DNA from: Schmidtea polychroa | Lineage: Eukaryota | Length of the DNA: 64,000 nucleotides | Assembly (NCBI GenBank): GCA_044892525.1 | Contig: CM097885.1 | Span: forward strand, 21,020,001 to 21,084,000 | Direction: 5' to 3' | In this document: positions 1-43,257 of the stretch, piece after piece | Layout: each line of letters starts with the position of its first letter | How positions within the stretch are numbered: position 1 is the first letter of the stretch | Made by a program: the position numbers and the translations under genes | The notes under the pieces: generated by a model | Seen by the model: the letters and a program-made list of their open reading frames with translations, nothing else | Databases searched by the model: none | Told to the model about the DNA's origin: nothing

Positions 1-1205
1 TGGGGGCACCAGTTTACTTGAAGTCTAACGCCGCATTCACTGCTAGAGTGACAATTCATTAATTTTTGCAAGTTAAAAACTGTGGTATAATGGAAATTAT
101 CACCGTCTTCCAACAAAAGTAAGTATAAGGGTTCACCACCTATAACTTTAGAGCGGTGAATAATATCTAAATATGGATGATGGGGAATATAGTTACTATC
201 ATCGTTTTCTATAGGCTTAGCTGGGTTTTTCCTATATGTCAATACATTAATTGATAAATTTAATTCTTTATTTTTCCTCTCGAATTTGGGGATATCACAT
301 AATTTCATGGGACAATCATTTATTGGGTCAAAATTTAACTCGTCAAGATAATTTTCATAGGAACTAACTCTATTTCTATTTATATGTACTACATTGCGTT
401 TTAACAGTGCTAAAATACTATAGATAAAGCACATATCGTCGGTGTTTTTGACGTTTACTATTGCTTTTTTAGAATTTAAAGCTGATGGGGTGGGGATATA
501 ACTATGTCCAGCTAGCCTATTCATAATCTTATACTTATTTATTATGAAGTCAATTTCTTTGATTTTAACAACCCGCCATCCGCTACCTAAATACGTAAAT
601 TTTTCAATTTTATTATTTAATTTAGTGATTCCATTAATCAAAAAATTTTCTGAAAAAACCTCTGCATTATTAGAGAAAAAATTATCTCTAATTTCCCCAT
701 CTTTCTCAAACTGGATGAGGATGGTGAACTGAATTTTGACTGTGCCCATTCCTTTCCTTTCGGAAATTAATTTATCAACAATCTTATTTGTGAGGGAAAT
801 TTCAACCAAATTATCCTTTTCAACGTCAAATCTTAAATTTTTTCGTGCCCCCTTAAAATCGATTTCAATTTCTGGTTCATCATCAAGATCGACCGAACCA
901 CCTACTTGATAAAACATGGGGTTATCCTTAATTTTAGTAATTTTTGAGGGAACACCAGACCCAATACTAACAGCAAGCCGTTTATTATTATTATTATTAG
1001 TATTTACAGAAGAACTTATCACAGAAGCAGTTATATTCACTGGAGAAGATATAATCACGGGCGAAGTATTTGTAGAGATATTTTTTGTTATAGGTCGCGA
1101 ATTATTATTTACATGTGTATTATTTACAGGTGTTTTACTTTTTATTTTATTAAAAAGTTTCTTTTTATTTATTGTATACTGGTTAAGATGAGTCTTATGG
1201 GTCAT
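1..1205 (-). CDS. Protein-primed DNA polymerase B, N-terminal region (ORF runs off the left edge, so it is absent from the ORF track)
   Basis: Manual translation is open from ATG 1205 to base 1: YLGSGWRVVKIKE...SYIPTPSALNSKKAIVNVKNTDDMCFIYSILALL...CDIPKFERKN...SINV...FHYTTVFNLQKL, matching Polinton pPolB N-terminal motifs. The true start may lie upstream or be spliced. Confidence 0.85.
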   Translation of the reverse strand, partial: MTHKTHLNQYTINKKKLFNKIKSKTPVNNTHVNNNSRPITKNISTNTSPVIISSPVNITASVISSSVNTNNNNNKRLAVSIGSGVPSKITKIKDNPMFYQVGGSVDLDDEPEIEIDFKGARKNLRFDVEKDNLVEISLTNKIVDKLISERKGMGTVKIQFTILIQFEKDGEIRDNFFSNNAEVFSENFLINGITKLNNKIEKFTYLGSGWRVVKIKEIDFIINKYKIMNRLAGHSYIPTPSALNSKKAIVNVKNTDDMCFIYSILALLKRNVVHINRNRVSSYENYLDELNFDPINDCPMKLCDIPKFERKNKELNLSINVLTYRKNPAKPIENDDSNYIPHHPYLDIIHRSKVIGGEPLYLLLLEDGDNFHYTTVFNLQKLMNCHSSSECGVRLQVNWCP

Positions 1206-1739
1206 ATAAAAACACTTATATTTTATATTTTGGGATGTCTCGCATATGGGACAAATATAGTAGTTGATGCCAATCTATGACCGTAGTATTTTTTCATGGT
1301 CTTATGGCATAAATTGGAATGGCCTCTTGAAGATTGGCAATATTTGCGATATAATTTACCTGTTAACGAGAAATTATAAAAGATGGTGAAAAATATTATA
1401 ATCAATTGTTATTAGTTAGTCTATTTTTATCTTTATAAAAAAAAAAAGATTAACTAATAACCATTAAAAATAATAATCTATAATATTCGTTTTTTTTTTT
1501 CAAAGATAGTTGTAAACTACTTTGAACATTAATATAAGAAGAATATTTATTATTATTTATATTATTATTATTAATATTATTATTATTATTATTACTATAG
1601 TAGGTAGATAGTAGCCCGCGGGAAAAATTACCCCCCCCCCCGGGGGGGTTGTTCCCAACTTTTTATTACGCAATTGTTCCCAACTCATTTTTTTGCTTTC
1701 AGGGATTTTTGGTCCAAATTTTTTTTTATCACACTTATT

Positions 1740-6430: not shown

Positions 6431-7539
6431 AATATTTCCCTATAAAACATGTAAAATAATTTGGTCATTAACCCTAGATAATTGATAAAATCTAATGATA
6501 AAACCGGTTATAATTAACTTTTTGTTAATCACTGTACTCGAAATTTAAAATAAATATAACTGACTAGGTCCCATTAAAAGATTAAATTTATCCATTCAAT
6601 AAAATATATTTCTTCAAATGATCATTTTACCGATATTCAACCGATTTAATTACTAATTAAAATCAATCGATAGATTTCTTTCAATAAAGATCAATTTTAT
6701 TTAGTCGATGTTTTAAGTCCATATTTCTAAACTTTTATCATTTTTGTAAATTTCTATTATTTTTGTGGATTTCTAACATTTTTGCAAATTTGATGTTTAT
6801 TGAATGAATATTTAATAATTTAATGCTAATTCTAAGATAAATTTAATTAATTTCTTGATAATTGGATGTATTTTTATTGACTTGTTTTTTTTAATTTTAA
6901 ATAAAAATTATTTTCAATGAGGTTAATAATTAGAGATTTTACAATAATGAAGTGATATGATAAATTTTTATGAGGATATTGAATAATTTTCTAAGAATTT
7001 CATGTTGACTGATAAATTTAATTGATAAATTTAATTAATTTCTTGATAATTAGTTGTATTTTATTGAATAGTTTCTAAATAAAAATTAATTTCATTGACA
7101 ATTAGGTTAATAATTAAGTGATTTTTGATGATAACTTTGTAATGTATTTGACTAAATAATTTTTTCAATAATTTACTCATTGATGAACTTTAAAAAACAT
7201 AAGCTAAGAAACCAGTTAACTTTAAATTTACATGAAAATGATTGTAGGATATACAGAAATTTAGTTTGCTTGAAAATGATTGGTTGAATCGATGAAGAAT
7301 TATGATCAAACAATATATATCATCTCCAGTATTTGATGGTAAATATTTGTAGAAAATATTGATTTTTGATCTTTTAGTGGGCTCTTATTATTTAGCTTCT
7401 AAATTATTTCAATGGAAGAATATTTGGTGTCTATAACAATTCATTTGTTTTTTTGAAGAATTCTTTAAGGATTTTAAGAGGATTGACTGAATTAAAGGAG
7501 GATTCAAGTGGGTAGAATTGAAGGATATATTTGGTTAGA

Positions 7540-7860
7540 TGTTTAAAGAGGTAGAAATATTTAATGAGAGATCGATTAAGATGGGAAAATATGATCTTTT
7601 AAGGGAGATATAGTCGGTTAGATTTAATGAAGGATGGGTTAAGATGGAAATAGATCATTGTAAGGGAGATATAGTCGATTGACTTTAATAAGAAATCGAT
7701 TAAGATGGGAATATATGATCTTTTGAGGGGATATAGTCGGTTAGATTTAATGAGAGATCAGATAAGGTGGGAATATATTATTGTAAGGGAGATATAGTCG
7801 GTTGCTTTTAATGAGGGAAGGGTTTCGATGGGAATATATGATTTTTTAAGGGTGATGTTG
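7540..7860 (+). repeat. ~60-bp purine-rich tandem repeat (TTTAATGAGAGATCG...GGGAATATATGATC...GATATAGTCGG)
   Basis: About 5 degenerate units; homologues at ~50950-51230 (-) and ~55030-55320 (+). Confidence 0.75.
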
Positions 7861-8090
7861 GTAAAATATCAATGTTTTTTAAGGAAATTGCAATACATTA
7901 GTCAGTTATGAATCAATAATAATTATATCGTTTTATTAGGTTGTGATTAATCCATTGTATATTAATTTAGATTTATGGATTATTAAGTAGGGATAATGAG
8001 CGATTTACTTGGTTTTGACAATGAAAACTTTACAGATAATTGGGATTGATATCAACTTTAAATTATTTTTATCTTTATTTAGACGGAGAA

Positions 8091-10296
8091 TGACAAAAGT
8101 TTAGAAATATGGACTTAAAACATCGATTAAATAAAATTGATCTTTATTGAAAGAAATCTATCGATTGATTTTAATTAGTAATTAAATCGGTTGAATATCG
8201 GTAAAATGATCATTTGAAGAAATATATTTTATTGAATGGATAAATTTAATCTTTTAATGGGACCTAGTCAGTTATATTTATTTTAAATTTCGAGTACAGT
8301 GATTAACAAAAAGTTAATTATAACCGGTTTTATCATTAGATTTTATCAATTATTTAGGGTTAATGACCAAATTATTTTACATGTTTTATAGGGAAATATT
8401 CATGATAATAGGAATTAAAGTCATTTAAAGGGGATTTTAAGCAATCTTATTAGTCTGAGGTAAATATATAACCTTTTAAGGATATTTATCGATAAAATAC
8501 TAATCTTTAAAGATAGTTATTTCAGGGAAATTTGATGCTTTTTAGATGATTTTAGTGAAATATTTGTAATAATATGGATTAAGGGTAGAAATATAGTCAT
8601 TTAAGAGATTTTAAGGAATCTTGTTAGTTTGAGGTGAATATATAGTCTTTTAAGGGTACTTATCATTAAAATATCAATCTTTAAAGATAGTGTTATTTCA
8701 ATGAAATTTGATGCTTTTTAGATGATATTTGTAATAATATGAATTAAGGATAGAAATGTAGTCATTTAAGGGGATTTTAAGGAATCTTGTTAGTTTGAGG
8801 TGAATATATGATCTTTAACAAGTACTTATCATTAAAATACCAATCTTTAAATATTGATATATTTAGGGGAAAATGATTCTTTTTAGATGATTTTATTGGA
8901 GAATTCACTTGGATATACCAATTATTGTCATTTAAATGAATTTACTGGTTTGTTAGATGTTATCATTAGTTATCTAGTCTCTTTTGGAATTTAATGATAA
9001 TTATTTTTATTGTAGATTGCTGACTTTGATAATTGTAATGAATTTATACTGATTTTTTTGAATATATTGAGAAATCAGTCAATCAATTTGAGTACATGTA
9101 TTACTTTTACAAAAATAATTAAATTTAATTTTATTTAAATTAATTTATTCAATCTAAATCAATTATCTACTAGATCTTATTTCAAAATTCTTATTAATTT
9201 ATTATCTTAGTTGATTCATATTAACTTGAATGATCAATGACTAGAATTTAAAGTTCTTTCTTGTCCATTAATTATATTTTTTTAATTTAGTATATTTTGA
9301 ATAATTTAAATTTTTACAATAATTTAATCAATTTTTACCAAGTTATTGATGCCTTGAGTTCAAATATCTTAAAAGTGCCTTGAGTTCAATTAATTTTTCA
9401 TCTAATTTTTTTCAAGTGATGAGTATTTGCTTTTAAAGATCAATTTGTTAGTACATAGTTGTTGGTTGTAAGTAGTTGGTTGACTTTTTAGATTTTGATA
9501 AGAAAATAGTGTATGCGATGAAGAATAATTTTTTTATTTAATTGCTATTATTTTTATGTGTTGTTAGTTGATTGTTGGTACTAAGTTGTTGGTTTCTTGT
9601 ATTTGGTAGTTGGTACAGTGTTGTATACTGATTGTTGTTATATAGTTGTAGGTTGATAATGCTTAGTACCTGGTTGTTGTTGGTTGTTAGTGTTTAGTAT
9701 TTAGTTGTTTGAAACCTAGTTGTTAGTACATGGTAACTAATTAATGAGTAGGTGGGGGGTTGAGTGTTACCAATACCCTTACGACCAGTACCCTTACGAC
9801 CAGTACCCTTAGGGGGTCAAAACATCCTGTCGGATAAACTCAGAGTATATATAATAAAACTGATCAACAATAAGTATTTATTGAATGCGATTTTTACATT
9901 GCAATAATAAGTTATCAATTAAAAGAAGAATGTTTTGTGAATTAGAATTCATTAGTCTTTCATTGTAATTATTTTGAATTTCACGTGGTGTTTTAAAGTG
10001 GTTGAGTTGTGGTTTTTTGATGAAAATCAACATTTTTTGTTAAATTTGAAAAGGTTTTTCTACTGATTGTAATTAAATATATTTTTGAAGATAGATAAAA
10101 AATTAATTTAAAAATCATTTCATAAAATACAATGAAGAATATTTAGTTGATTGTAAGTAGTTAGTTGTAAGTATGTGGTTGTTTGAGAGTTAGTTAGTAC
10201 GTGGTATCATGTTGAAAGTATTTGTTAGCACCTAGTTAAAAATAATCAGTAACCGATTGTTGGTAACTGTTTAATTATTATTATAATTATTATTAA

Positions 10297-10355
<59 letters not shown>

Positions 10356-13300
10356 CATTTAAATTTTCATTAAAAATTACATTTCTCAAAAAAGTTGGTG
10401 GTTATTCAATCTTTTGATAATAAATTTAAAAATCTTACTTTAATTTTCATATTACATTACTTATTTAAAAATTATTACTTTAATTTACTTATTTAACTTT
10501 AATTTAATTTTTTAGAACATTGATTACTTATTTTTAAAATTTGGACCTTAATTAACTTTAATTTAATTTTTTAACTTTAATTTACTTATCCTTAATTTAC
10601 CTATTTATGCTTTATTACTTAATTTTACACCATAATTTACTTAACAACTAAATATAACCCTTATTTTCATATTTAACCAATAATTTCATGTGGTCATCTG
10701 GTTGTAAGTGTTTGGTATCTAGTTGACAGTGCTTAGTACTAGGTAAGTTACTTGGTTGTTAGTACTTGGTTGATAATGCTTAGTACCTGGTTGATGTTGG
10801 TTGTATGTACTTTGTAGGTGGTTGTAGGTGCTTAGTAGTTGGTAACTGGTTGTTAGTACTTGGTAGGTGGTTGTTAGTTGGTTGTAGGTACTTAGTAGTT
10901 GGTTAATAATGCTTAGTACTTGGTTGTTGTCGCTTGTGAGTACTTGGTATCTAGTACCTAGTTGGTTGGTTGTTAGTACCAGTTGTAGGTAATTAATGCT
11001 TAGTACCTGGTTGTTGTCGGTTGTTAGTACATGGTAGATGGTAGCTAGTTGGTTGTAGGTACTTAGTAGTTGGTTAATAATGCTTAGTAACTGGTTGTTG
11101 TCGGTTGTGAGTACTTGGTATCTAGTACCTAGTTGGTTGGTGGTTTTTGGTTGATAGTACTTGGTATCTAGTTGTAAGTATTTGGTATCAGGTAACTGGT
11201 TGTTAGTATCTAGTTGTAGGTTGTAGGTACTTAGTAGTTGGTAATTAATGCTTAGTACCTGGTTGTTGTAGGTTGTGAGTACTTGGTATCTAGTACCTAG
11301 TCGGTTGGTTGTTAGTACTTAGTATTTAGTTGGTTGATAATGCTTAGTACCTGGTTGATGCTGGTTGTAAGTAGTTGGTATCTAGTACCTAGTTGGTTGG
11401 TTGTTAGTACCAGTTGTAGGTACTTGGTAGCAGGTAACTGGTTGTTAGTATCTAGTTGTAGGTTGTAGGTACTTAGTAGTTAGTTGATGATGCTTAGTAC
11501 TTGGTTGATGTTGGTTGTAAGTACTTGGTATCTAGTTGTTAGTAACTAGTTGTAGGTAATTAATGCTTAGTAGTTGGTAACTGGTTGTTAGTATTTAGTT
11601 GTTTGAGACCTGGTTGTTAGTACTTGGTAGCTAGTTAATGGGTTGGTGGTTGTAGGTACTTGGTATCTAGTTGTTAGTATCTAGTTGTAGGTATCTGGTA
11701 ACTAGTTGGTTGTTGGTACTTAGTAGGTGGTATCTGGTACCTGTTTGGTTGCTTGTTTTTGGTTGTTAGTACTTGTTAGGTGGTTGTAGGTACTTAGTAT
11801 CAGGTAACTAGTTGTTAGTACCTAGTTGTAGATACTTGGTATCTGGTAATTTGTTGTAGGTACTTGGTTGTTTTTGGTTGTTAGTACTTAGTAGTTGGTT
11901 GTAGGTACTTGGTAGGTGGTAGTTAGTTGTTAGCTAATTGTTGTGGGTTGTTAGTACTTGGTATCAGGTAACTGGTTGTTAGTAACTAGTTGTAGGTATC
12001 TGGTTGTAACTACATGTTCGTAAGTTACTGGTTGTTGGTACTAAGTTGTTGGTTTGTTGTTGAATTATTATTAAAATTTGTCTTTGAAAAATTATTTCAT
12101 AAAAATTTCCATTAAAAATTACCATTAAAAAATATTTCATAAAAATTTCAATTAAAAATTAACTTAAAAAATTATTTCATAAAAATTTTAATTAAAAAAT
12201 TTCAATTCTCAAACACCTATTATTTCAACTTTTTGTTAATAAATTTAAAAATCTTACTTTAATTTACTTATTACATTACTTATTTAAAAATTATTACTAT
12301 AATTTACTTATTTAAAATTTTTTACCATTGATTACTTAATTTAAAAATTTGGACCTTAATTAACTTTAATTTAATTTTTTAGAACCTTAATTTACTTTAA
12401 TTTAAAAATTTGGACCATTATTTACTGTAATTTAATTTTTAGAACCTTAATTTACTTTAATTGAAAAATTTGGACCATTATTTACTTTAATTGAAAAATT
12501 TGAACCATAATTTACTTATTTAGACCATAATTTACTTTAATTTAATTTTTTAGAACCATTATTTACTGTAATTGAAAAATTTGGACCATAATTACTTTAA
12601 TTTAATTTTTAGAACCTTAATTTACTTTAATTTAAAAATTTGGACCATTATTTACTTTAATTTAATTTTTAGAACCATAATTTACTGTAATTTAATTTTT
12701 TAGGACCATAATTTACTGTAATTGAAAAATTTGAGCCATTATTTACTTTAATTTAAAAATTTGGACCTTAATTAACTTTCATTTAATTTTTTTTAGACCA
12801 TTATTTACTTAAATTCAATTTTTAGAACCATTATTTAGTGTAATTGAAAAATTTGAGCCATAATTTACTTTAATTTAATTTTTTAGAACCATAATTTACT
12901 TTAATTTAATTTTTGGACCATTATTTACTGTAATTCAAAAATTTTGACCATAATTTACTGTAATTCAAAAATTTGAGCCATAATTTACTGTAATTTAATT
13001 TTTTAGAACCATTATTTACTTTAATTGAAAAATTTGAGCCATAATTTACTGTAATTTAATTTTTAGAACCATAATTTACTTAAATTTAAAAATTTGGACC
13101 ATTATTTACTTTAATTGAAAAATTTACCACGTTTTTAGTGTAGACCACCTATTTCTCAGGACCAAGGAGACTCACCTCACTATAGTCTGAAAAAATCCTT
13201 GGCTTTTTTAGTGGTAGTCAGATTTTTGTATTGAAAATATCCTGAGACCTTAAATTACCATGCTTTTTTAGTGTAGACCAGCTTTTTGTATTGAAAAATT

Positions 13301-13739
13301 TTTTTTGTATTGAAAATCCTAGGACCATCGAGACCCCCTCACTATAGTCGGAAAATTCCATGCTTTTTTAGTGGTAGTCGGATTTTTGTATTGAAAATCC
13401 CAGGACCATCGAGACCCCCTCACTATAGTCTGAAAATTCCATGCTTTTTTATTGGTAGTCGGATTTTTGTATAGAAAATCCCAGGACCATCGAGACCCCC
13501 TCACTATAGTCTGAAAATTCTATGCTTTTTTAGTGGTAGTCGGATTTTTGTATTGAAAAAAATTTTTTGTATTGAAAATCCCAGGACCATCGAGACCCCC
13601 TCACTATAGTGTGATAAAAAAAAATTTGGACCAAAAATCCCTGAAAGCAAAAAAATGAGTTGGGAACAATTGCGTAATAAAAAGTTGGGAACAACAGGGG
13701 GGGGGGGTAATTGTTCCCGCGGGCTACTATCTACCTACT
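8091..13739 (-). repeat. Right arm of the element A inverted repeat
   Basis: Reverse complement of 1599..6740. The spacer 6741-8090 is homologous to ~54260-55610 of element B. Confidence 0.9.
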
Positions 13740-14592: not shown

Positions 14593-15323
14593 CTAACATT
14601 TAGACTCTGAATCAGAGTCTGTTTCGTCCTCAGTGAGGATATTTCCAAAGACCTCCCTAATAGTGGCATCTCCAATAAAAGTTGAGGCATAATCTGCTTC
14701 CTCCCCAATAGCATTGGGGGCATCTCCAATAGGTGCATCTCCAATAAAAGTTGAGGCATAATCCGCTACCTCCTCAATAGCAGTGGGGGCATCAATTAGT
14801 ATTGTTTCATCAATAGGTGCAGCATAAATTGGAGCATCATCCTCAGAGAGGGCATACCGAATAGGGCCATCATTCAAAACATTTGAAGCTTCTAAATCAT
14901 TTTTAAAATTACATATAAAAATAATAAAAACTTACGAGTATTTTCTATCATCGCATGTTCGATGAAAAACTCATTGTCGATGTGATTAGGAATCATTTGA
15001 CTATGGCCTAAAAAAGGTTTTTAATACAATAATAATAATAATAATAATAATAAATTACTTGATAAATCATCATCATCCTCACTAATGACTATTGTATCGT
15101 CATTGTCGCTAATAATTATGGGATCTTCATTATCGCTAATAATGATAGGTTCTAAAGAAAATTAATTTAATAAAAATTAAAATAATAAATTTACCGAATA
15201 TATTATCCACATTTAAGATAGAATCGTTCTCCGTCACTTCATACCAATCGAAAACATCTAAAATAAAATAAAATAAAATATAATAAAATTACCAGTTGAC
15301 AAAATATTGTTTCGGTTAGCCAT
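14593..15323 (-). CDS. Five-exon acidic protein (~185 aa) with tandem SIM-like motifs; Polinton accessory gene
   Basis: Exons 15323-15293, 15257-15195, 15151-15059, 15007-14936, 14891-14593. GT-AG introns of 35, 43, 51 and 44 nt give one open frame: MANRNNILSTDVFDWYE...EPIIISDNEDPIIISDNDDTIVISEDDDD...SESKC*. Confidence 0.75.
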
Positions 15324-16625: not shown

Positions 16626-17849
16626 TTATACCAACACTGTTCTATTTGCAGTAATTTGAACTTCATTTTCAAATACTCCATATATTATAACATGTACCGG
16701 TTCAGTAATAGCTTTTGCAAACTTTATATCCAGTCGTAAATTTCCATTTTGTGGTAATTGACTTTGATTTAAATCAAAATCAGGGGCTAAAACAAATGTA
16801 AAAAATGGATATTTGCTTTTAAAATCTTCTAGAGTAATTCCACAATTCAAATTTTTATCTAAATAACCCAGATTTCTAACAATACTCTGCATATATGTCG
16901 CACAGTAATTGTCATTCTCGAAATCTTGAATATATGTTTCTCTATAATCAGTATTTTTCGACAAAGTCAATGAAGTAACATTAAAGTTTTTGAAAATTGA
17001 GCTGGAAGCAGTATAAGATCCATTATATTGTGCTTCACTTTGAAATGTTATCAGAATAAAATTAGGCATTCTTCTGTCACCAAATATTTGTTCTTTATAG
17101 AATGATGAAGCACCTTTAGCAATAGCGAATTGTACAATTTCCTTTGTCTTTAATGGATAAATTGCATGTTTTGAATTAAGACCCAATTGATGACCAGCTA
17201 ATACTGAGGGGTCCACTCGAACTCTTCTCACCAATAATTTTGCATCGACTAATTGACATATTGGTGCACCAGTTGCACTAGTAAGAGATAATGCAGAATC
17301 GGACCTTTTCAATCTAATGTGTACATTAACTCCCGGTAGTAAATATTTCGGTTGATCCATAAAATCAAGTTGTAACGATGAGCACATGGCGAAAACCTTT
17401 GAACCTTTAACCCACTTTTTTCTTTCATCATCTGTTGCTGCATAACCCATAGGTGTAAGACAGGTATTTTTAGTATCGGAATTGTAATTTAAAATAGTTT
17501 CTATCAAAGCCTTGTGAATGAATGTATTATTTCCACCCTCAATCTTGATATTATTAAATCCCAACACTGCATCTTTAAACAGAGTATGAAACATGAAATT
17601 GTTCGGTATTACATCTGCATTGGCATCCAAAACTTTTCTATCTTTATCTACAACCTTGATCTTAACAGTCAATAAAGTATCGTTCAAATCTAAATATTCA
17701 GTTTGCGAACCATTAATATAAAACTCTATATCATTTCTACTATCGGTAATTGAATTCATAGGAAAAACTTCCTCAAATGCCCCAAATTCTATTACAGCCT
17801 GGGGCGATGGTCTATCAAATATACATAATTCAGATTTACCACAAATCAT
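16626..17849 (-). CDS. Polinton major capsid protein (double jelly-roll, PY)
   Basis: 407 aa. N-terminal CGKSELCIFDRPSPQ...IEFYINGSQTEYLDLNDTLL and C-terminal GNLRLDIKFAK...IIYGVFENEVQI match Maverick MCPs. Confidence 0.9.
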   Translation of the reverse strand: MICGKSELCIFDRPSPQAVIEFGAFEEVFPMNSITDSRNDIEFYINGSQTEYLDLNDTLLTVKIKVVDKDRKVLDANADVIPNNFMFHTLFKDAVLGFNNIKIEGGNNTFIHKALIETILNYNSDTKNTCLTPMGYAATDDERKKWVKGSKVFAMCSSLQLDFMDQPKYLLPGVNVHIRLKRSDSALSLTSATGAPICQLVDAKLLVRRVRVDPSVLAGHQLGLNSKHAIYPLKTKEIVQFAIAKGASSFYKEQIFGDRRMPNFILITFQSEAQYNGSYTASSSIFKNFNVTSLTLSKNTDYRETYIQDFENDNYCATYMQSIVRNLGYLDKNLNCGITLEDFKSKYPFFTFVLAPDFDLNQSQLPQNGNLRLDIKFAKAITEPVHVIIYGVFENEVQITANRTVLV

Positions 17850-18214
17850 TTTGCAAATATAGTTCCATGTCCTTTCATTCGTTTGTTTATACGTGATATT
17901 CCATGTCTTTTACGTTTTGGAACAGGAGCTGGAGCTGGAGATTTTTCTTTTTGAAACATACCTGCAACCCCGGGTAAAACTTTACCTAATTCAGCTAAAG
18001 CATTTGTTTTTAGAGATGGTAATATTTTCTGTTCATTCATAATAACATCTTTTGCAGTTTTCATACCAAAACTACCAATACGTTTAAGAATAGGCAATGC
18101 AAATCTACCAATTGTTCTCAACCATCCCGATCCGTACTGTTTACCAATAAAATATGGTAATTCGCCACCAGATTGGCTACCGCTATACATACTAATAATA
18201 TCAGAATTTGCCAT
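17846..18214 (-). CDS. Polinton small virion protein (PM-like)
   Basis: QSGG and QYGSG motifs, amphipathic WLRTIGRFALPILK, basic C-terminus; lies between mCP and MCP. Confidence 0.7.
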   Translation of the reverse strand: MANSDIISMYSGSQSGGELPYFIGKQYGSGWLRTIGRFALPILKRIGSFGMKTAKDVIMNEQKILPSLKTNALAELGKVLPGVAGMFQKEKSPAPAPVPKRKRHGISRINKRMKGHGTIFAK

Positions 18215-19134
18215 CTACTTTACGAAAATGTAATGTCAAATGAGTTTTTGAACCTTTTGGAAAGTTTATAAGTTTTCCACTATCATCACGAATATTTATT
18301 TCTATATTGTTTATACATGAACTTGCTATTGGTAAATACATGGGATTATCGATATTTATATTGACAACTTCATCATGTTCATATTTTCCAATCCATACCG
18401 ATTTCAAAAGAGGAACACTGGAATCACCAACAATTATGGGTTCGATAATGTTAGTATATATGAACATTTGTTGATGATGTTCTAGTATTCTTGGTTTGCG
18501 TATACCAGTCGATTTTTCTCGATATTTTTGCCTATCTAATCCAAGTGAATTTGCCAAATTTTTATCAAATGTAACTTCGCAAATATCCTCATTCAAACTG
18601 AAGGTAAACATCAAATCTTTCACAATTTCCAAATTTTTAAATATGTGTGAACAATTGAACTTTAAATATTTAAGTAAATCATCAAGTTTATCAAAATATA
18701 ATTCATCAGCAAAGGTAAATGATTCTTCAACTTCATCATTATACGACACAGATATTTTGATTTCTTCTTTCATTACACTGTTTGCTTCAAATAGATTAAA
18801 ACGTAATAAATACTCGGTCTCCGTAACAATATTTTTCAACTTATTGCAACCCATTCGTTTGGCATCTTCAATAATTACTAATAATAAAGATACCGCTACA
18901 TGTTTTCACAATATTCCTTTTGAAATCAATCTTACATTGACTATAAAATGGGAATGTGTTGTACACGAATGTAAAATCTTGCAGTGCAACTTCCCAGTCA
19001 CCATTTAAAGAAATCGGATTCTGGAGATTGACCATAAATTTACTGGCTTGATTGTCTGGATGAATTAATGGGCAACTATTGCTCGGTAAAATAGTATAAA
19101 AAATCACTTTACTAGGTCTTTTGCTGATATCCAT
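18201..19134 (-). CDS. Polinton minor capsid protein (penton-like, PX), split over two frames by a probable intron or frameshift
   Basis: N-terminal FYTILPSNS...PISLNGDWEVAL; C-terminal MFIYTNIIEPIIVGDSSVPLLK...NIEINIRDDSGKLINF...LTLHFRK. Confidence 0.85.
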
Positions 19135-19733
19135 GACGGGTTTTGATAACCATGCCATTTGACATAGTATTGTTTATCCTTACCTACCTTTTTAGTTTTC
19201 AATATTTTTTGAATTCTAAATACTTTTGGAGGAGGAATGACTTGTAATTCCTGCTCATAAAATTTCCCTTGTACAATATTATTATCACTGTCTTTGATGA
19301 CATACATTACAGGATTCTGTTTAGTATTTATTTTTGAAATTACAAAGACTTCATCACTCCAATTTGTATCGAAATTTTTAATAAATGGTGATGCACTAAT
19401 TTTACTAATTCTAACATGGTCACCGACTTTATATTTAGGTTTTGCAATTTTTACAGATTTCTTAGAATAGAATGTTTTTGATGTAATATCAACCGGTCTC
19501 AATCCATCCAGTCCTCGATGTGATGAATGATTATAACTTGTTATTATTTTCGGTAAAGCATTTACCCATTTTTTATTACCTTGATGCACGAACAATTTCT
19601 TTAATCGATCTCTCAATGTTCGATTAAATCTTTCAACGTGGGCAGCTTTGTATTGAGAATGTACCGAGTAGTGATTTATTTTCAGTTTATCGAGGATTTG
19701 CTTAACTTTACTATTGTAGAATTCTTTACCTAA

Positions 19734-19798
<65 letters not shown>

Positions 19799-20186
19799 CT
19801 AAATCTGTTTGCAAGTTATTAGGATGTCCATCTTTAAATAAAATATTAATTGCCTTGGACATTTCTTCTGCAGATTTTGCCTTGACCGGTATTGCTCGTG
19901 CAAACCTGCTGTATACATTAATACATGTTAAAATATATTTATTCCCATTGTTAATTTTCGAATAGGGTATCATCTCCATCAAATCCATTTGCCATAAATC
20001 GTCAATACCAAATGTTTTATACGCTCTTGTTGGAAATCTTTTCCGCATTGGTTTGTTCAAACTGTACGCAAGCTGATCTGATAACCACTTCTGGGTTTCT
20101 TTTTTCGAATTCGGAACTCTTTTGTTTAATTTTGCCACTCCACCGAAACCGGCTTCGTCTTCTGGGTTCATCCAAATCTTCTCCAT
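19104..20186 (-). CDS. Polinton retroviral-like DDE integrase with C-terminal chromodomain; one 69-nt intron (19730-19798)
   Basis: Motifs WQMDL, QTDLG^KEF and HVERFNRTL; chromodomain YYVKWHGY..PSWI. The poly-Ile run in the ORF track is an (ATT)n tract bounded by GT...TAG. Confidence 0.92.
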
Positions 20187-20787: not shown

Positions 20788-21414
20788 TCAACTTTGTTTA
20801 TAAACCATGGCACCTTTTGGGTTGAAAATATCTGTTTTTACTCGTAAATCATCGGGACATTGTTGTGTGAAATCAAGAAATATATATCCATGAGGTATTT
20901 TTGTAGCATCTTGAAATGCACTGATAAGAAAATTACGATTGTTAGGGTATGCTTGGCGTGCAAGAAAATAAATCACTGTTGCATCTCTAGGATTCTTGAA
21001 AATAACTAAATATTGTACATTTAAATTACGTGTTCGATGTGCCCCACCTTGATGAAATAGATTTTGTGTTATGAAAATAACTGTTACACCGACATGTCTG
21101 CTAATCTTTGTAAATAAATTATTAAAATCTTTTTCTTTATTAGCTTCTTGATACAAATCATCGATAATAATGACATCACCTTTCTTTAATCGGCTGGACC
21201 AGTTTTTATCGAATCCCTTTACTATTTTCATGTTTTTTAATTTACAGAAACTTGATTGAGTTAATCCATGTTCTTCTTCAGCACCCCTATGCCAATAAAT
21301 CCTGTTGAATTTTGATTTGAATAAATATGATTTTAGTAATTTACAAACAAATAATGTTTTTCCACTACCACTCGGACCAACGATTTGGTATACTGCATCA
21401 TTTCTTAATTCCAT
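20788..21414 (-). CDS. A32-like (FtsK/HerA) DNA-packaging ATPase
   Basis: Walker A GPSGSGKT, Walker B IIIDD, plus SRH..VTVIFITQN and FKNPRD. Confidence 0.93.
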   Translation of the reverse strand: MELRNDAVYQIVGPSGSGKTLFVCKLLKSYLFKSKFNRIYWHRGAEEEHGLTQSSFCKLKNMKIVKGFDKNWSSRLKKGDVIIIDDLYQEANKEKDFNNLFTKISRHVGVTVIFITQNLFHQGGAHRTRNLNVQYLVIFKNPRDATVIYFLARQAYPNNRNFLISAFQDATKIPHGYIFLDFTQQCPDDLRVKTDIFNPKGAMVYKQS

Positions 21415-21513: not shown

Positions 21514-21951
21514 ATGTTAGCAAATATAAATTATCGAGGAAATTTTGATGTAACAAATATGAGGTTCCCACCAGGAAAACCCCAGCAAATTATCGATAGA
21601 AGCGGGAAATACCCGATAATATTTTTCAAGACTGGTAAATGTAGAATCATGGGATGTAAGAAACCCTTGGATTTTAATAAATTACAATATCGAATAAATA
21701 ATATTAAAATCCAATCAATTACCGTTACTATGGATATGGGACATAGTATCAATTTATATAACATGTCGAAAAAATGTGATTGTATGTTTGAACCGGAATT
21801 TTTTCCCGCACTAAGACTAATAAAATATAACCCTTTATGTGTCAACGTGTTTGCTAGTGGAAAGGTTGTCATGCTGGGGTTGAGAAATTTGGAGTATAGA
21901 GAATTTGTTGACAATGTTCGAAATGAGATAATTTCATTGGTCAATTTCTAA
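21514..21951 (+). CDS. Divergent TATA-binding-protein-like protein
   Basis: Two TBP-repeat-like halves: IIFFKTGKCRIMGCK and FEPEFFPALRL...VNVFASGKVVMLG (compare TBP YEPELFPGL...LIFVSGKVVLTG). TATATAAAG about 25 nt upstream. Confidence 0.8.
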   Translation: MLANINYRGNFDVTNMRFPPGKPQQIIDRSGKYPIIFFKTGKCRIMGCKKPLDFNKLQYRINNIKIQSITVTMDMGHSINLYNMSKKCDCMFEPEFFPALRLIKYNPLCVNVFASGKVVMLGLRNLEYREFVDNVRNEIISLVNF

Positions 21952-22707: not shown

Positions 22708-23127
22708 ATGACAAAGAAAATTTCAAGCACTGAAAAGCCGAAAGTTGTTCCAGAACTTGTACAACCCGTTCAAATGTTCCACAACTATAAAATGTATTTT
22801 TTAAAAGAAGAAATCAATATGAAATTTGTGTCACCGATCAAGCTAATTCCTACCCAATTTCAATTTTTATCCGGCACGCTTTCAACGATAGATGTTAAAT
22901 CTATTGATGAGGTTTTCAAACGGTTGAATACGAATCTATCTTGTAATCAACATGCATTTTTCAACAACCGATATGCAAGATTTTATGATTCCTTTGATGA
23001 AATCAGCTTCAAAGAAAACGAAAATTGGTATATAACAATTGCAATCCAAGGATATAAAGTTGATAATAATGATGTGTATTCTCCAATTTGGAAAATTATG
23101 TCTGCTAGACTTTCACAACTATTTTAA
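22708..23127 (+). CDS. Hypothetical Polinton protein (139 aa)
   Basis: Clean ORF preceded by CTGATTGGTT and TATAAAAA, followed by AATAAA. Confidence 0.6.
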   Translation: MTKKISSTEKPKVVPELVQPVQMFHNYKMYFLKEEINMKFVSPIKLIPTQFQFLSGTLSTIDVKSIDEVFKRLNTNLSCNQHAFFNNRYARFYDSFDEISFKENENWYITIAIQGYKVDNNDVYSPIWKIMSARLSQLF

Positions 23128-23640: not shown

Positions 23641-24169
23641 TTAATTTTTATTCATATATCTACAGAAAATATACATTATAACAACTCCAGTTGTAAGTTT
23701 TATATAGTTTTTCATTTTTCTTTTGATTTCATCAATTTCTTTAAAATTGCAGGCCAGTTTATTCAATACACCCCATCCGCCATTGGCTTCTATCCATGGG
23801 GTAAACTTGGACTTGATTATCTAGAAATGAATATTATTAAAATATATATGTAGATTATAAAAGAAATCTTACTTCTAAAGACCACTGATAATAATGTTCT
23901 GAGTCATGTTGACCTTTTGCAATGATTATCTTCATGTAGGTGAATCCTACAATTATCCTTGTCCATTTCATGTCTTCATCGAAAAGACACTGAAATATTC
24001 TATTGAAGTAATACTTCTTGGTTTCCAGGGATTCTATCTCCATCATTTGCTGATAATCGATATGTTCACCTTCAATGATTTGTTCAGTTCGATTGATCAG
24101 GAAATTGAGGCTGTCGACTATATTCGCGGTGACAATTCCGTTTAGAACATTTTCACTAAATTGAGACAT
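23641..24169 (-). CDS. Two-exon Bcl-2-family-like protein (~158 aa)
   Basis: Exon 24169-23873, 52-nt GTAAG...TAG intron, exon 23820-23641. BH1-like LFDEDMKWTRIIVGFTY, BH2 WIEANGGW, C-terminal hydrophobic tail LTTGVVIMYIFC. Confidence 0.8.
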
Positions 24170-24362
24170 TTTTATAATAATTTTTAATATACTGCTTTAT
24201 TTATATTACTACTGAAATAACATATGTTCTGATTGGTTGATAGACTATAAAAATAGGAGTTTTGATTTGATACACCATTAAAACTAAATTCATATTGGTA
24301 TAATGAGTGTGTGCTAAAACTAATAATAATAATAATAATAATACCATTGCGAGTTGTTGAGC

Positions 24363-24699: not shown

Positions 24700-24931
24700 A
24701 TAATATGACCTTGATGAGTCATCACGATGAGTCATATGACCTTGAGAATGGTATTGATGAGTCATGGTCTTTGTTTAAATGACCTTGATGAGTCATATGT
24801 CTTTGTTTAAAATTTGACCTTGAAAAAAAATGTACTTTTAGACTTAGAAAATTTTTTTAAAATTTTCCGGCCAAGGGAGGGGGTATGTGATCTAGCGGGC
24901 TCCTGATCTAGCGGGCTCCAATCCATCTACT
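24700..24931 (-). repeat. Probable Polinton right terminal/TIR region
   Basis: Short repeats (TGACCTTGATGAGTCA; TGATCTAGCGGGCTCC x2) ending in CTACT. Predicted TSD CATGGT (24932-24937); the partner end is not in the window. Confidence 0.65.
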
Positions 24932-26295: not shown

Positions 26296-26529
26296 TATGA
26301 GGAAGTTTTATGATGAAGAAATTTTTAAATTGAAAATTTTAAAAATTAAATTTTAGATTAATTTTTAAAAAACAAAATAAGAAGATATTTTAATTAAAAA
26401 TATCTTCGTAGAAAATTTGTTTAAATAAGAAATTTCAAAGAAGATATAATTTGATTTTGATATTTACTGAAATAAAATTTATGGAAACAAAAACTGATTT
26501 TAATGTTTTACAGGATGAACCTCTTAATA
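26296..26529 (+). repeat. 5' LTR
   Basis: 4 differences from the 3' LTR over 234 bp. Confidence 0.95.
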
Positions 26530-27573
26530 TGGTGGCAGCGGTAAACACGGACGCAATCACCGAAAGATTGCTACCAAAGGTATTCTGCCAAGGAGACGAT
26601 TTGGAAAAGTTCATTAAAAGATGCGAAATTTATTTCGACGCCAAGGGAATCACGCAGAAGAAAGATCAGGAAAGATTAACATCTTGCATGATTGATGAGG
26701 ATCTCCTGGAAGTGTACGCCAAAACACTGAAAAAAGCCGAAGGATTCCAGGCTAGATTGCGATTGGCATTCGATCGCGAAAGAGATGTTTTAAAGGATCT
26801 ACAAAACTTGTTGAATTACAAGCGGAAGGGTGAAGAAATAGAAACGTATTTTAAAAAGGTGGAGGACCTTGTTGATAGATTGTTTGAAAATAAAGAATTT
26901 ACCAAAGAGAAATTAACAGCAAGGATGTTAATAGTATGCGGAGAATAAAGAAGTTGAGAAAGAAGTGATACTACGGAAGATAAAAAGCACAGAAGAAATA
27001 AAGGAAACACTAACTCTGATGGACAAAGTATACAAGCAAAGAGATCAGATAAACAGTATGAAAAGTTACGCCAGAGTGGTCTATCAGGAACCACAGGGAA
27101 GAGTACAATACAAGAAGAAAGAACAGAGAGAAGAAAGTATCCGAAGAGAAATGCCAGAATGCTGGTTATGCCACAAAATAGGACACATGAAAATTGATTG
27201 TCCAATAAAAGGTAAAATAGAATGCTGGACATGCCATAGAAGCGGACATATAAGTAGAAACTGTCCAGATAAAAAAGCTCCAAGATGTTTTGGGTGTGGG
27301 AAAGAAGGTCATATAAGAAGATTGTGTCAGGAAATACGTTGTGAAAGATGTAGCAGAAATGGTCATAGATCCGAGGAGTGTTATACAAAGATGAGGTACG
27401 GGAGGGCGACGGAGAGACAAAGATTCACGGGAAACAGATACAGTCGGATAAATGGTATCGAGGAAGAAGAAGAAAGGGAATCGTGTGTAGAGACAAATGA
27501 AGATAATTTTAGGAAGACGTACCCAAACAACAGGGCTCCACCAGTAGAGGAGTTGGTTGGAGCCATATTCTAA
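26529..27573 (+). pseudogene. gag: gag, frameshifted near 26945; four CCHC zinc knuckles
   Basis: Two ORFs in different frames; knuckles CWLCHKIGHMKIDC, CWTCHRSGHISRNC, CFGCGKEGHIRRLC, CERCSRNGHRSEEC. Confidence 0.85.
26530..26542 (+). promoter_or_regulatory. Primer-binding site, tRNA-Leu type
   Basis: TGGTGGCAGCGGT immediately after the LTR, complementary to the tRNA-Leu 3' end ACCGCUGCCACCA. Confidence 0.8.
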
Positions 27574-27581
27574 CAGAAAAT

Positions 27582-30500
27582 TTGATGGGATATCCTCAAG
27601 GAGCAGAAAAGTGGGAGAATGTTGGAAGGGTAAGCGAGAAAGTATACAGGTTCCTAAAGAGAGAAATGTTTGAAGAGGAAGTGGAAAGAATTGGAACCAT
27701 TGAAACGGAGCAGGTTGTTGAAATTTTGTATAACAGAATGCAAGGAAGGCCTAGTATAACAGTAAGGATGAATGGGAAAATTTCGACTGTTTTTTAGACA
27801 CTGGGGCAAGAATCAATGTAATGAGTGTGAACTGCTTTAACAAGCTACGAGGACAACAATTGACGAAAAGTGACGATAAGTTACGATGCGCAAACGAGAG
27901 TACGATCGAGACAATAGGAAAAACGAAGGTGCAAGTAACCATTGGAAATGTTTCGAAGGAAGATATATTCATTGTGGCGGAGAAAGTGACACCAGACGTG
28001 ATTGGAGGAATCGAATTTCAAGAAACATTTGGATTTAGACTGTTAAAAATTAAAGATATCGAGGCTAGTGAAAAAGACAAGAACTATATTTGTAACATTG
28101 AAGCAAAATTTGGCAGAAAAATAAAGGATGAAGAACGATTGATACGAGCGTTGGAACAGTTAAAGATAAATGAAGATAGCAAATTAAAGGAAATTATAAC
28201 AAACAGTGGAAACGTGTTTATGGCAGATAAATGGGATGTGGGTCGCACACATTTGGTAAAACACAAGATAGTTACAAGAGGTGAGCCGATAAACATAAAA
28301 CCATATCGCCAACCACTAAATTTGGAATCAAAGATTGAAGAAGCAATACAAAATTTGTACGAAAATGGAATTATACGGAAATGTAACTCTCCATGGAATA
28401 CACCGCTAATATGTGTATGGAAAAAAGAGAAAAAGGATATTAGACTATGCTTGGACTTTAGACAGCTGAACGCGGTAATAGAGAGGCAGGCATTTCCAAT
28501 GCCAAACATAGACGAGATGTTGGATTTGTTAGGAGGATCCGTCTTTTTCAGCTCAATCGATCTAGGTAATGCATATTACCAAGTGGAACTAGAAGAAGAA
28601 TCATAGGAGAAAACAGTTTTCTCAACAAAGAACGGACAATATTGTTTTAACAGAATGCCGTTTGGAATTACAGCAGCACCAGGTAAGTTCCAAGAAATGA
28701 TGACAAAAGTATTAGGCAAAATAAAGGGAGCAGTGGTGTATTTGGATGACATCTTGATTTATTCAAGCAGTAAAGAGAAACACTATACAATACTCGGAGA
28801 AGTGTTAAAGGCGATTGAGGAAGCAGGCCTAAGGATTAATCCAGACAAATGCCAAATAATAAAGGAAGAAATCAGATTCTTAGGACACATAATCAGCAAG
28901 GAAGGAGTACAGACAGATCCATCTAAAATTCAGGCCATACAGAACTTTGGGAAGCCTAATTGCGTAAAGAAACTCCGAAGCTTTTTAGGTATTTGCAATT
29001 ATTATAGAAGATTCATCAGTGATTATGCAAAGAAGGCAAGGATGTTAGAACAATTATGTAGCGGACCAAGTAACAAAAAATTAGAATATAGTGAAGGAAC
29101 GAATAGCGGGTTTGAGGGATTGAAATTAGCACTCACGACGGCGCCAATCTTATGTTTTCCGGATCTGAAAAAGGAGTTCATTTTAGATACCGACGCTAGT
29201 TTCGATACCATTAGAGCAGTACTTTCACAAAGAGATAAAGATGGAAAGGAAAGAGTAATTGCGTATGGATCACACTCGATGACGAGCAACGAGAAAAGAT
29301 ATTGTATTACAAGAAAGGAACTATTGGCGGTATATTATCTTTGCATTCATTTTAAGCACTATCTCTACGGAAGAAGATTCACGCTCAGGACAGACCACAA
29401 GGCAATCACGTTTATGATGACAACCAAGAAGCCGATTACTTCACAATTCCAAACATGGATCAATTATTTGAGCAGTTTAGATATAAGAGTAGAATACAGA
29501 AAGGGTATTAATCACCAAAATGCAGACATGGTGTCGAGAACTAAATGTGACACGTGTGTTCAATGTCAAATGGCCCACGAAGAAGCTAAGAAAGGAAAGA
29601 TAAAAACCAGATTACTATACTCGATCAGAGAACAAGGAAGAAGCAACATCCAACATGGAATTGTAGAAGAAGTACGAAAGAAAACGATGATACCTGAAAA
29701 TGAGTTACAAGAAACAATAAAGGAAATACATAGACTATTGTGTCATGCTGGAGTCGAGAAGATAGCCGATTATATGAAAGATAGATATGTTGGAAAACAC
29801 CTGTGGAGTCAGATTCAGGAAATTGTTGGAATTTGTGAGATTTGTCAAAAAACCAAGGCTTTAACAATAACAACGAAAGAACCAGTAAAAAAACAAGATT
29901 CGAAGGAAATGTTCGAAATTATATTCGTGGATATATGTGGACCGTTGACAGAAACAAAAGGACGAAAGAAGTATATATTGGGCATAATAGATCAGTATAG
30001 TAAGTATCAAGTCTTGACAGTGATAACAAAACAAGACGAAGAAACAATAAAGAAAACGATTTTAGAAAAGTGGATTTTAAGATTTGGATGCCCAAAGGAG
30101 ATAAGAGTTGATTGCGGAAAGGCGTTTGAATCAGGAATGATGAGAGAATTCACAAAGATGCTAGATATTAAATTATGTTTTTCGAGTCCATACCATCACC
30201 AAACAAACGGTCAGATAGAAAGACAATTCAGGACAATACGGGATTTTATAAATGCTACTTTACAGGATAGAAAGAAGACGGATTGGGCAGAGATATTACC
30301 AGAAGTCGAATTCACTTTAAATGCAACCAAACAAAAAACGACAGGGAAAAGCCCGGCAGAGATAGTTTTTGGAAAAAAGATTAGCAGGGAAAAATGGTAC
30401 GGGTCCAAAGAAATACCGATAAAGGAAGAACTAGAAGAACAAACAAGGAGAAAATTCAATGTAGAAGAAGAAGTATTAGTAAAAGTAGAAACACGCCACA

Positions 30501-30640
30501 AAGGCCAGGACAGGTATGAAGGTCCGTACAAAGTGATAGAGAAAGTGCATGACAGACGATACATCTTAAGAAATGAAGATGGAAAAAGGATCGAAAGAAA
30601 TGTGGAAAAACTTAAAAATTTCTTAAGAAGGAGGATATGA
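27582..30640 (+). pseudogene. pol: pol (protease, RT, RNase H, integrase) with a frameshift near 27790 and an in-frame TAG at 28604-28606
   Basis: Motifs LDTGA, LCLDFRQLN, MPFG, YLDD, DTDAS, TDH, HHCC, VDICGP, VDCG, NGQIER, YEGPY. Confidence 0.92.
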
Positions 30641-30869
30641 GGAAGTTTTATGATGAAGAAATTTTTAAATTGAAAATTTAAAAAATTAAATTTTAGATTA
30701 ATATTTAAAAAACAAAATAAGAAGATATTTTAATTAAAAATATCTTCGTAGAAAATTTGTTTAAATAAGAAAGTTCAAAGAAGATATAATTTGATTTTGA
30801 TATTTACTGAAATAAAATTTATGGAAACAAAAACTGATTTTAATGTTTTACAGGATGAACCTCCTAATA
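30636..30869 (+). repeat. 3' LTR
   Basis: Direct repeat of 26296-26529. Confidence 0.95.
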
Positions 30870-30940
30870 TCCAGTTTGATCATATGCAGAATCAATACAA
30901 TCAATCATGAATATCGTTTTCAAGCTGATCAGTGTGGAGC

Positions 30941-42985: not shown

Positions 42986-43166
<181 letters not shown>

Positions 43167-43218
43167 TAAAACAATAAAATGATAATTTAAGCCTTTTGCT
43201 GCAAATAATGTATTTAAT

Positions 43219-43257
43219 GAAAGAATTTTCGACTATACGATAGTCCTTGTCAATCTC
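43219..43257 (-). ncRNA. Candidate minimal variant hammerhead ribozyme in the Penelope 3' repeat
   Basis: GAGA-UUGACAA-G-GACUAU(CGU)AUAGUC-GAA-AAUU-C-UUUC; folded by eye. Confidence 0.45.

What the first reader, a model, noticed from the sequence alone, without database searches (positions are those of the whole stretch)
23641..24169. Hidden spliced Bcl-2-like gene near the Polinton end
Seen: the ORF track stops at VRFLL, but splicing a 52-nt intron adds WIEANGGW (BH2) and a hydrophobic tail to a BH1-like motif in which NWGR is replaced by KWTR. Known: viral Bcl-2 mimics such as adenovirus E1B-19K block apoptosis. Inference: virus-like control of host cell death by a Polinton.
Basis: partly seen in the sequence, partly recalled or inferred. 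Interest (0 to 1): 0.75.

Follow-up and report, generated by a model that had tools for sequence, protein, structure and literature searches.

The report
Spliced Bcl-2 gene in a Polinton
A virus-like jumping element in an animal genome carries a real two-exon gene of the Bcl-2 cell-death-regulator family that likely helps keep its host cell alive; such cargo is already reported for these elements, though this copy has an altered binding motif and an intron at an unusual place.

Summary
Exon 1 (24169-23873) and exon 2 (23820-23641) flank a 52-nt GT-AG intron and give 158 aa. That junction appears in two RNA-like runs of one study and in none of three runs that behave as DNA. Each exon on its own ranks the Bcl-2 family first (Pfam E 0.002, below the curated cut-off; PDB; NCBIfam). 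Together they score 22 bits on a Bcl-2 profile, against 7 unspliced (0 of 1000 shuffles). Differences among copies lean synonymous (21 of 46, no stops). The fold is not shown: only exon 1 could be modelled, at pLDDT under 50. Function is untested. An early, tail-anchored pro-survival role is most likely (0.6). BH1 Gly is replaced by Thr, there is no BH3 LxxxGD, and the tail is only weakly hydrophobic, so binding may be non-canonical. It is not new in kind: Starrett 2021 reports adintovirus Bcl2 homologues, and this scan already noted the same gene in at least eight other windows of this genome and Bcl-2 cargo in other genomes. The residual interest is the intron, which is not at the ancient GGW site, in an element class described as intronless in vertebrates.

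The parts
23873..24169 (-). Exon 1, 99 aa: N-terminal helices, degenerate BH3 region, BH1 and most of the central hairpin
   Evidence: PF00452 E 0.0022, 18.9 bits, cut-off 31.4; Bak and A1 are the top PDB hits, E 0.12 and 0.18; Atlas score 0.93 to a Bcl-2 cluster
23821..23872 (-). 52-nt phase-0 GT-AG intron, holding the stop codon of the unspliced frame
   Evidence: Sequence; joint in X1 and X2 but not X4, X5, X6; 4 of the 5 indel sites listed for X5/X6 fall in it
23641..23820 (-). Exon 2, 59 aa plus stop: BH2 motif, basic stretch, hydrophobic tail
   Evidence: Its only two PDB hits are BCL-2 and Bcl-xL, E about 1; its only NCBIfam hit is TIGR00865 bcl-2, E 0.079; no Pfam hit alone
23957..23968 (-). 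BH1 core K68-W69-T70-R71, with Thr at the conserved Gly position
   Evidence: Alignments; W-T-R also in P0001 and in P0002, which is 83% identical
23773..23796 (-). BH2 motif W108-IEANGG-W115
23662..23706 (-). Predicted short tail anchor, residues 138-152, flanked by Lys/Arg
   Evidence: Mean hydropathy 1.64 over 15 residues, against 2.19-2.47 in 52 cellular Bcl-2 tails; membrane insertion is inferred
24198..24236 (-). Candidate promoter: CCAAT at -67 and TATAAATA at -36 from the ATG
   Evidence: Motif scan, no shuffle control
24866..24893 (.). Inferred right end of the element; the end motif is judged from recall of Polinton ends
   Evidence: Sequence; the other end lies outside the window, so TIR and target duplication were not testable
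19104..20186 (-). Retrovirus-type integrase with C-terminal chromodomain, containing its own candidate 69-nt intron
   Evidence: PF00665 E 1.1e-5 and PF00385 E 2.9e-4; intron 19798-19730
20788..21414 (-). Packaging ATPase
   Evidence: PF04665 Pox_A32 E 2.1e-6, above cut-off
21514..21951 (+). TBP-like gene of the element
   Evidence: PF00352 E 1.9e-14
16626..18854 (-). Probable virion block: 407-aa major capsid, 122-aa core-type protein, 217-aa penton (labels recalled from Maverick gene layouts)
   Evidence: ORFs; no supporting library hit
3..1274 (-). Probable N-terminal part of the protein-primed DNA polymerase, running off the window (label recalled)
   Evidence: 424-aa open frame; no diagnostic hit in Pfam or PHROGs

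Best explanation
This is an intact two-exon Bcl-2-family gene carried near one end of a multi-copy Polinton/adintovirus-type element; its 158-aa product is predicted to anchor by its tail in the mitochondrial or ER membrane and likely holds back host pro-death proteins, so that a cell replicating or moving the element would survive. Shown: the gene model, a spliced form in RNA-like data, BH1 and BH2 motifs in family order, Arg71 kept, and a synonymous bias among copies. Inferred: the eight-helix Bcl-2 fold, the membrane anchor, early transcription by host polymerase II from a CCAAT/TATA promoter, capture from an animal host gene, and binding of BH3 helices of Bak/Bax-type or BH3-only proteins in a groove whose selectivity is shifted by Thr70.
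For: Joint 23820/23873 in X1 and X2 and not in X4, X5, X6. Each exon separately ranks Bcl-2 first. Exon1-X-exon2 scores 22.1 bits on a 33-sequence Bcl-2 profile, against 7.1 unspliced; 0 of 1000 full shuffles and 0 of 1000 exon-2 shuffles reach it. Of 46 listed differences among copies 21 are synonymous and none is a stop; expected share 0.18-0.24, p 2e-5 to 1e-3, crude pN/pS 0.27-0.38. [quoted passage not shown] Precedent: adintovirus Bcl2 and IAP homologues (PMC8502044) and UniProt A0A5H3CWZ2 'Bcl2 [Branchiostoma lancelet adintovirus]' (listed). The promoter is canonical, unlike the YATAAAC box before 7 of 12 element genes scanned.
Against: The BH1 Gly is replaced, and even G138A abolishes Bcl-xL inhibition of BAX (PMC8363748 passages). 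The tail is weaker than all 52 cellular tails measured (1.64 vs 2.19-2.47; over 19 residues 0.91 vs 1.92). BH1-BH2 spacing is 39, against 44 in 118 of 120 family rows. There is no BH4 hit, and Pfam stays below its cut-off. The swapped exon order still scores 19.1 bits, so the profile gain is mostly additive, and the profile was seeded from a BH2-pattern hit, which favours exon 2. Splice support comes from one study, one contig per run, and the RNA status is the tool's guess. Variant tables were cut (13 and 52 rows hidden), and 21 listed rows come from one divergent contig. P0001 reads G-I-Y after exon 1, so its donor may differ. No functional data exist.
Confidence: 0.6

Rival explanations
1. 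The protein has the Bcl-2 fold but does not work through the BH3 groove: it acts on autophagy, calcium or innate-immune signalling, or as a dimer, as some poxvirus Bcl-2-fold proteins do (recalled).
For: Thr at the Gly position in both subfamilies seen. PMC8998228 says loss of this Gly makes a working groove unlikely in Trichoplax Bcl-2L4 and that Ser there alters selectivity in mouse Boo. The hairpin is shortened and the tail weak.
Against: Arg71, which pairs with the BH3 Asp in family members (PMC9027176), is kept. The BH2 motif is canonical and a tail is present. Viral members with altered BH1, such as ORFV125 SPGR, still bind BH3 peptides, more weakly.
Confidence: 0.25
2. It is a captured host-gene passenger with no present function, copied along with the element.
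For: No close relative outside this organism's data. This copy of the element is interrupted by a 12-kb insertion, and no protease gene was seen in the window.
Against: Synonymous excess and no stops among the listed differences. Indels cluster in the intron. An 83%-identical subfamily keeps the frame and W-T-R. Spliced transcripts exist.
Confidence: 0.1
3. It is a Bak/Bax-like pore former that promotes cell death or particle release late in the cycle.
For: Bak is the top PDB hit for exon 1 (E 0.12), and one Atlas lead is named BAX-like (0.87).
Against: No LxxxGD BH3. The Bak and A1 scores are tied. The promoter lacks the YATAAAC box of the virion-type genes.
Confidence: 0.05

Closest known systems
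Bcl2 accessory genes of adintoviruses / animal Polintons-Mavericks (Starrett et al. 2021, PMC8502044, section 3.2 and Suppl. Fig. S2; UniProt A0A5H3CWZ2, Branchiostoma lancelet adintovirus)
   Same: A Bcl-2-family gene as cargo of an element with an rve-chromodomain integrase and a packaging ATPase.
   Different: This one is spliced and 158 aa (the lancelet entry is 197 aa), and has Thr for the BH1 Gly. Direct homology to the published genes was not shown: the fold match was E 3.6 on a poor model, and the sequences were not at hand.
Cellular multi-motif Bcl-2 family (PF00452; Bcl-2, Bcl-xL, A1, Bak)
   Same: BH1 then BH2 then a hydrophobic tail; W and R of BH1 and WIxxNGGW of BH2 are kept; about 17-22% identity for exon 1.
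   Different: No BH4 hit, no LxxxGD, BH1-BH2 spacing 39 vs 42-44, weaker tail. The intron lies 8 codons before BH2, not after GGW, where PMC8998228 places the conserved boundary.
Viral Bcl-2 proteins of large DNA viruses (adenovirus E1B-19K, KSHV KsBcl-2, orf virus ORFV125; PMC11209288, PMC9027176)
   Same: Compact size, degenerate BH3/BH4 and, by inference, the same purpose.
   Different: No sequence support for descent from E1B-19K (no PF01691 hit). Those proteins have been tested in the laboratory; this one has not.
BCL2-like domain of planarian Burro giant gypsy retroelements (PMC6431247, section 7)
   Same: A Bcl-2-like module carried by a high-copy mobile element of an animal genome.
   Different: There it is a domain within a polyprotein of about 4,900 aa of an LTR element; here it is a free two-exon gene in a DNA element. 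The relationship was not tested.

Membership tests
Multi-motif Bcl-2 family | PF00452 above the curated cut-off (31.4 bits) | tested here: inconclusive
   Exon 1 alone 18.9 bits, E 0.0022, the only hit among 24,736 models. The full product could not be scanned against Pfam; it scores 22.1 bits on my own profile.
Multi-motif Bcl-2 family | BH1 with W and R at the start of helix 5 | tested here: met
   W69, R71 and I72 are invariant in the 10-row alignment; they align with Bak and A1.
Multi-motif Bcl-2 family | BH1 glycine (NWGR) | tested here: not met
   Thr70 in the window, P0001 and P0002. Accepted members also lack it (Trichoplax Bcl-2L4, mouse Boo; PMC8998228), so it bears on the groove, not on membership.
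Multi-motif Bcl-2 family | BH2 (WIxxxGGW) downstream of BH1 | tested here: met
   W108-W115.
Multi-motif Bcl-2 family | Helical bundle around a central hydrophobic hairpin | tested here: inconclusive
   Exon-1 models are all-helical but have pLDDT 47 and 49; no significant fold match.
Multi-motif Bcl-2 family | C-terminal membrane anchor | tested here: inconclusive
   A hydrophobic stretch at 138-152 with basic flanks, weaker than 52 of 52 cellular tails.
Pro-survival (viral) Bcl-2 | Binds BH3 helices and blocks mitochondrial permeabilisation | not testable with these tools
   Needs binding and cell assays.
Bax/Bak/Bok effectors | Exposed BH3 motif LxxxGD | tested here: not met
   No such pattern in exon 1; the matching position reads L24-I-N-R-T-E29 (inferred from the Pfam register).
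Orthologous cellular Bcl-2 gene structure | Intron directly after BH2 GGW | tested here: not met
   The intron follows E99, 16 codons before W115; the conserved boundary is from PMC8998228.
Adintovirus / animal Polinton (definition in PMC11071296) | rve integrase with C-terminal chromodomain | tested here: met
   PF00665 and PF00385 on 19107-20186, both below their cut-offs but in the expected order.
Adintovirus / animal Polinton | Packaging ATPase | tested here: met
   Pox_A32 27.9 bits, cut-off 22.8.
Adintovirus / animal Polinton | Hexon-type major capsid protein | tested here: inconclusive
   407-aa ORF in the expected block; no library hit; label recalled.
Adintovirus / animal Polinton | Protein-primed PolB with N-terminal OTU-like domain | tested here: inconclusive
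   Only 424 codons lie in the window; no diagnostic hit.
Adintovirus / animal Polinton | [quoted passage not shown] | not testable with these tools
   The left end is outside the window and no genome was held.

The most novel reading that the evidence does not exclude
A Polinton lineage that has gained its own spliceosomal introns transcribes, from many genomic copies, a Bcl-2 whose groove has been rebuilt (conserved Thr for the BH1 Gly, shortened hairpin) to neutralise one host killer selectively, or to act outside apoptosis. The summed output of the copies would shift the death threshold of host cells, so that a transposon-borne survival gene supplements the host's own.
Probability: 0.15. 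Interest if true: 0.65.

Novelty: new member of a known kind. Interest (0 to 1): 0.3.

Why it matters
If the function is confirmed, it would turn a one-line annotation for adintoviruses into a tested mechanism, and show that an integrated, virus-like element in an animal still needs to suppress host cell death. In practice it shows that ORF-only annotation misses accessory genes of these elements, since vertebrate Mavericks were described as intronless (PMC8097293) while this element has introns in the Bcl-2 gene and probably in its integrase. The natural Gly-to-Thr BH1 variant, kept across two subfamilies, is a small structural question. None of this is a new kind of system.

Tried and rejected
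No whole genome was held, so copy number, the left end and the host's own Bcl-2 genes were not examined. Searches for relatives: the exon-1 ORF gave only P0001 and P0002 (2 of 2 candidates), both unnamed singletons; the profile search of 1.84 billion representatives gave only P0001; exon 2 against longer proteins gave 0 of 8 candidates; viral and metagenome contigs gave none; capsid and ATPase queries gave none in viral contigs; the Atlas had no usable hit for exon 2. Structure: two exon-1 models were low confidence. Foldseek on PDB had nothing under E 4, with five Bcl-2-family chains among 14 weak rows. VIA-wide had best Z 5.6 with a Bak dimer at rank 18. BFVD had nothing under E 1.3. These are uninformative, not negative. 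No listed holder run is on record as RNA, and X3 laid nothing. The unspliced 104-aa product as a selected isoform was rejected, because the read-through tail differs in all three sequences (VRFLL, GIY, VNLFLFIIIIIFR); intron-containing contigs in X1 may be pre-mRNA or DNA. Two alternative acceptors 9 and 15 nt downstream are in frame, but no joint for them was listed. A BH2-pattern scan of viral contigs gave 120 loci, of which 2 had NWGR upstream (L008, L034); none was a close relative. A complex prediction was not run, since no binding partner sequence was at hand. Literature searches for Polinton/Maverick/adintovirus with Bcl-2, apoptosis, splicing or planarian found no report of a spliced Polinton Bcl-2. 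The library is partial, and Suppl. Fig. S1 of PMC8502044 (slides) could not be read and may show such genes.

Full report
OBSERVATION. On the minus strand an ATG at 24169 opens a 104-codon frame that ends VRFLL-stop. A donor GTAAGA follows codon 99, and an acceptor TTCTAG lies 52 nt on; the intron (23872-23821) falls between codons, and the second exon adds 59 residues, 158 in all. Of 44 GT-AG combinations in the region it gives the longest product. Contigs of public runs show the joint 23820/23873 in X1 (short side 30 letters, just under the tool's threshold of 31) and X2 (39 letters), two samples of one study that the tool guesses to be RNA. It is not listed for X4, X5 or X6 (4,813, 190 and 248 contigs laid), which carry the intron; their kind is not on record, and I read them as DNA for that reason, which is partly circular. 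X3 laid nothing. Four of the five indel sites listed for X5/X6 in a 601-base stretch fall in the 52-base intron, and the fifth at the start codon.

FAMILY. Each exon points to Bcl-2 without help from the other. Exon 1: PF00452 is the only Pfam hit (E 0.0022, 18.9 bits, cut-off 31.4); Bak and A1 head the PDB list (E 0.12, 0.18); the Atlas gives 0.93 to a cluster 46% PF00452, with 10 of the 10 best family hits agreeing. Exon 2: its only two PDB hits are BCL-2 and Bcl-xL (E about 1) and its only NCBIfam hit is TIGR00865 bcl-2 (E 0.079); Pfam and the Atlas gave nothing. I built a profile from 33 of 120 family rows fetched here. Exon 1, an X and exon 2 score 22.1 bits; the unspliced frame 7.1; none of 1000 full shuffles (maximum 7.6) or 1000 exon-2 shuffles (maximum 14.1) reaches it. 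The swapped order scores 19.1, so most of the gain is additive, and the profile was seeded from a BH2-pattern hit, which favours exon 2. Among 870 six-frame stretches of the window the two exon frames rank first and second. The fold itself was not shown: only exon 1 was modelled, at pLDDT 47 and 49, and three fold searches were uninformative.

ANATOMY. W69, R71 and I72 match BH1, with Thr70 at the Gly position in the window, in P0001 and in the 83%-identical P0002. BH2 is canonical. BH1-to-BH2 spacing is 39 residues, against 44 in 118 of 120 family rows and 42 in viral L034. There is no LxxxGD BH3 and no BH4 hit. The tail (138-152) has basic flanks but is less hydrophobic than all 52 cellular tails measured. 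The intron lies 8 codons before BH2, whereas PMC8998228 (section 2.2 read) places the conserved boundary after GGW from sponge to mouse. Either the element gained the intron or the host donor gene has an unusual structure; I could not test which. A CCAAT box at -67 and TATAAATA at -36 precede the gene, while 7 of 12 element genes scanned have YATAAAC (no shuffle control; the two-promoter idea comes from earlier scan notes).

SELECTION. I pooled the differences listed inside the coding region: 15 of the 40 rows shown (25 lay outside it and were dropped) and all 40 shown, 46 distinct sites. Twenty-one are synonymous, 25 change a residue and none makes a stop; the expected synonymous share is 0.18 to 0.24 (p 2e-5 to 1e-3; crude pN/pS 0.27 to 0.38). 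None changes W69, T70, R71 or the BH2 W, G, G, W. Limits: 13 and 52 rows were hidden, sites were treated singly, and 21 rows come from one divergent contig.

CONTEXT. The gene lies about 720 nt inside an inferred element end at about 24893. Leftward are small ORFs, a TBP-like gene, a Pox_A32 ATPase, an rve integrase with chromodomain, a probable penton and capsid (labels recalled; no library hit) and, beyond a 12-kb palindromic insertion, a probable polymerase start (label recalled). The integrase-chromodomain pairing is part of the adintovirus definition in PMC11071296 (passages). The many variant contigs in X4-X6 indicate a multi-copy family; I could not count copies, as no genome was held. 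Earlier scan notes call the host a planarian and trace the gene to host bcl2-1; I did not test either claim. In planarians bcl2-1 knock-down gave total lysis (PMC4993586 passages), so the pathway would matter in such a host.

MECHANISM. Most likely (0.6) the host polymerase transcribes the gene early, the spliceosome removes the intron and thereby adds BH2 and the tail, and the protein sits in the mitochondrial or ER membrane and sequesters BH3 helices, so that the cell survives replication or integration of the element. Transcription and splicing are supported; timing, location and binding are inferred. The main doubt is Thr70: G138A abolishes Bcl-xL inhibition of BAX (PMC8363748 passages), and PMC8998228 doubts a working groove where the Gly is lost. 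On the other side, Arg71, the salt-bridge residue (PMC9027176 passages), is kept, and altered BH1 motifs in viral members shift affinity without removing binding. A non-groove role gets 0.25, a passenger 0.1 and a pro-death role 0.05.

WHAT IS KNOWN. Starrett et al. 2021 state that adintovirus homologues of Bcl2 and IAP were observed (PMC8502044; section 3.2 read and the text layer of Suppl. Fig. S2, which has three Bcl2 labels; Fig. S1 unreadable). BFVD holds a lancelet adintovirus Bcl2. Planarian Burro retroelements carry a BCL2-like domain (PMC6431247, section 7 read). A review of viral Bcl-2 does not mention Polintons or adintoviruses (PMC11209288 passages), which suggests these genes are untested. 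Intact vertebrate Mavericks are described as intronless (PMC8097293 passages). Six searches found no paper on a spliced Polinton Bcl-2, in a partial library. This scan has noted the same spliced gene in at least eight other windows of this genome and Bcl-2 cargo in Mavericks of other genomes; these notes are leads, not independent support, and they pointed me to the Starrett paper.

VERDICT. A real, spliced, probably functional gene that resembles a viral Bcl-2 and that I file as a divergent Bcl-2-family member on motif and profile evidence, with the fold untested. It is a new member of a known kind; interest 0.3. The boldest open reading, a groove-rebuilt survival gene expressed from many copies of an intron-gaining Polinton lineage, has probability about 0.15 and would deserve 0.65.

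Noticed in passing
window 19730-19798 (-): The integrase frame reads through a run of Ile codons that is a 69-nt in-frame GT-AG candidate intron made of an AAT microsatellite; not tested against RNA data.
   Followed up: partly
window 14593-15323 (-): An acidic gene at the far side of the capsid block with about four short candidate GT-AG introns of 35-75 nt and a TATAAAC box; no Pfam hit for its last exon.
   Followed up: partly
window 21514-21951 (+): The element's own 145-aa TBP-like gene (PF00352 E 1.9e-14), head-to-head with the ATPase; 7 of 12 element genes have a YATAAAC box upstream. Noted before by this scan.
   Followed up: partly
window 1599-13739: A giant palindromic repeat (arms) separates the probable polymerase gene at 3-1274 from the rest of the element; already a separate finding of the scan.
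   Followed up: no
window 24888-24919: A 16-nt tandem duplication straddles the inferred right end of the element, which blurs the exact boundary and target site.
   Followed up: no
window 26300-30870 (+): A gypsy-type LTR retroelement (zinc knuckles, RT, RNase H, integrase) with similar repeats at both ends, outside the Polinton end; its pol frame has a stop near 28606.
   Followed up: no
window 22708-23127 (+): A 139-aa ORF with a weak match to phage family phrog_18661 (E 0.0017); its upstream region shares a TCTGATTGGTTGATA box with the Bcl-2 gene, in the opposite orientation.
   Followed up: no
window 43159-62869: A second large nested palindromic element with arms 99% complementary at its ends.
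   Followed up: no
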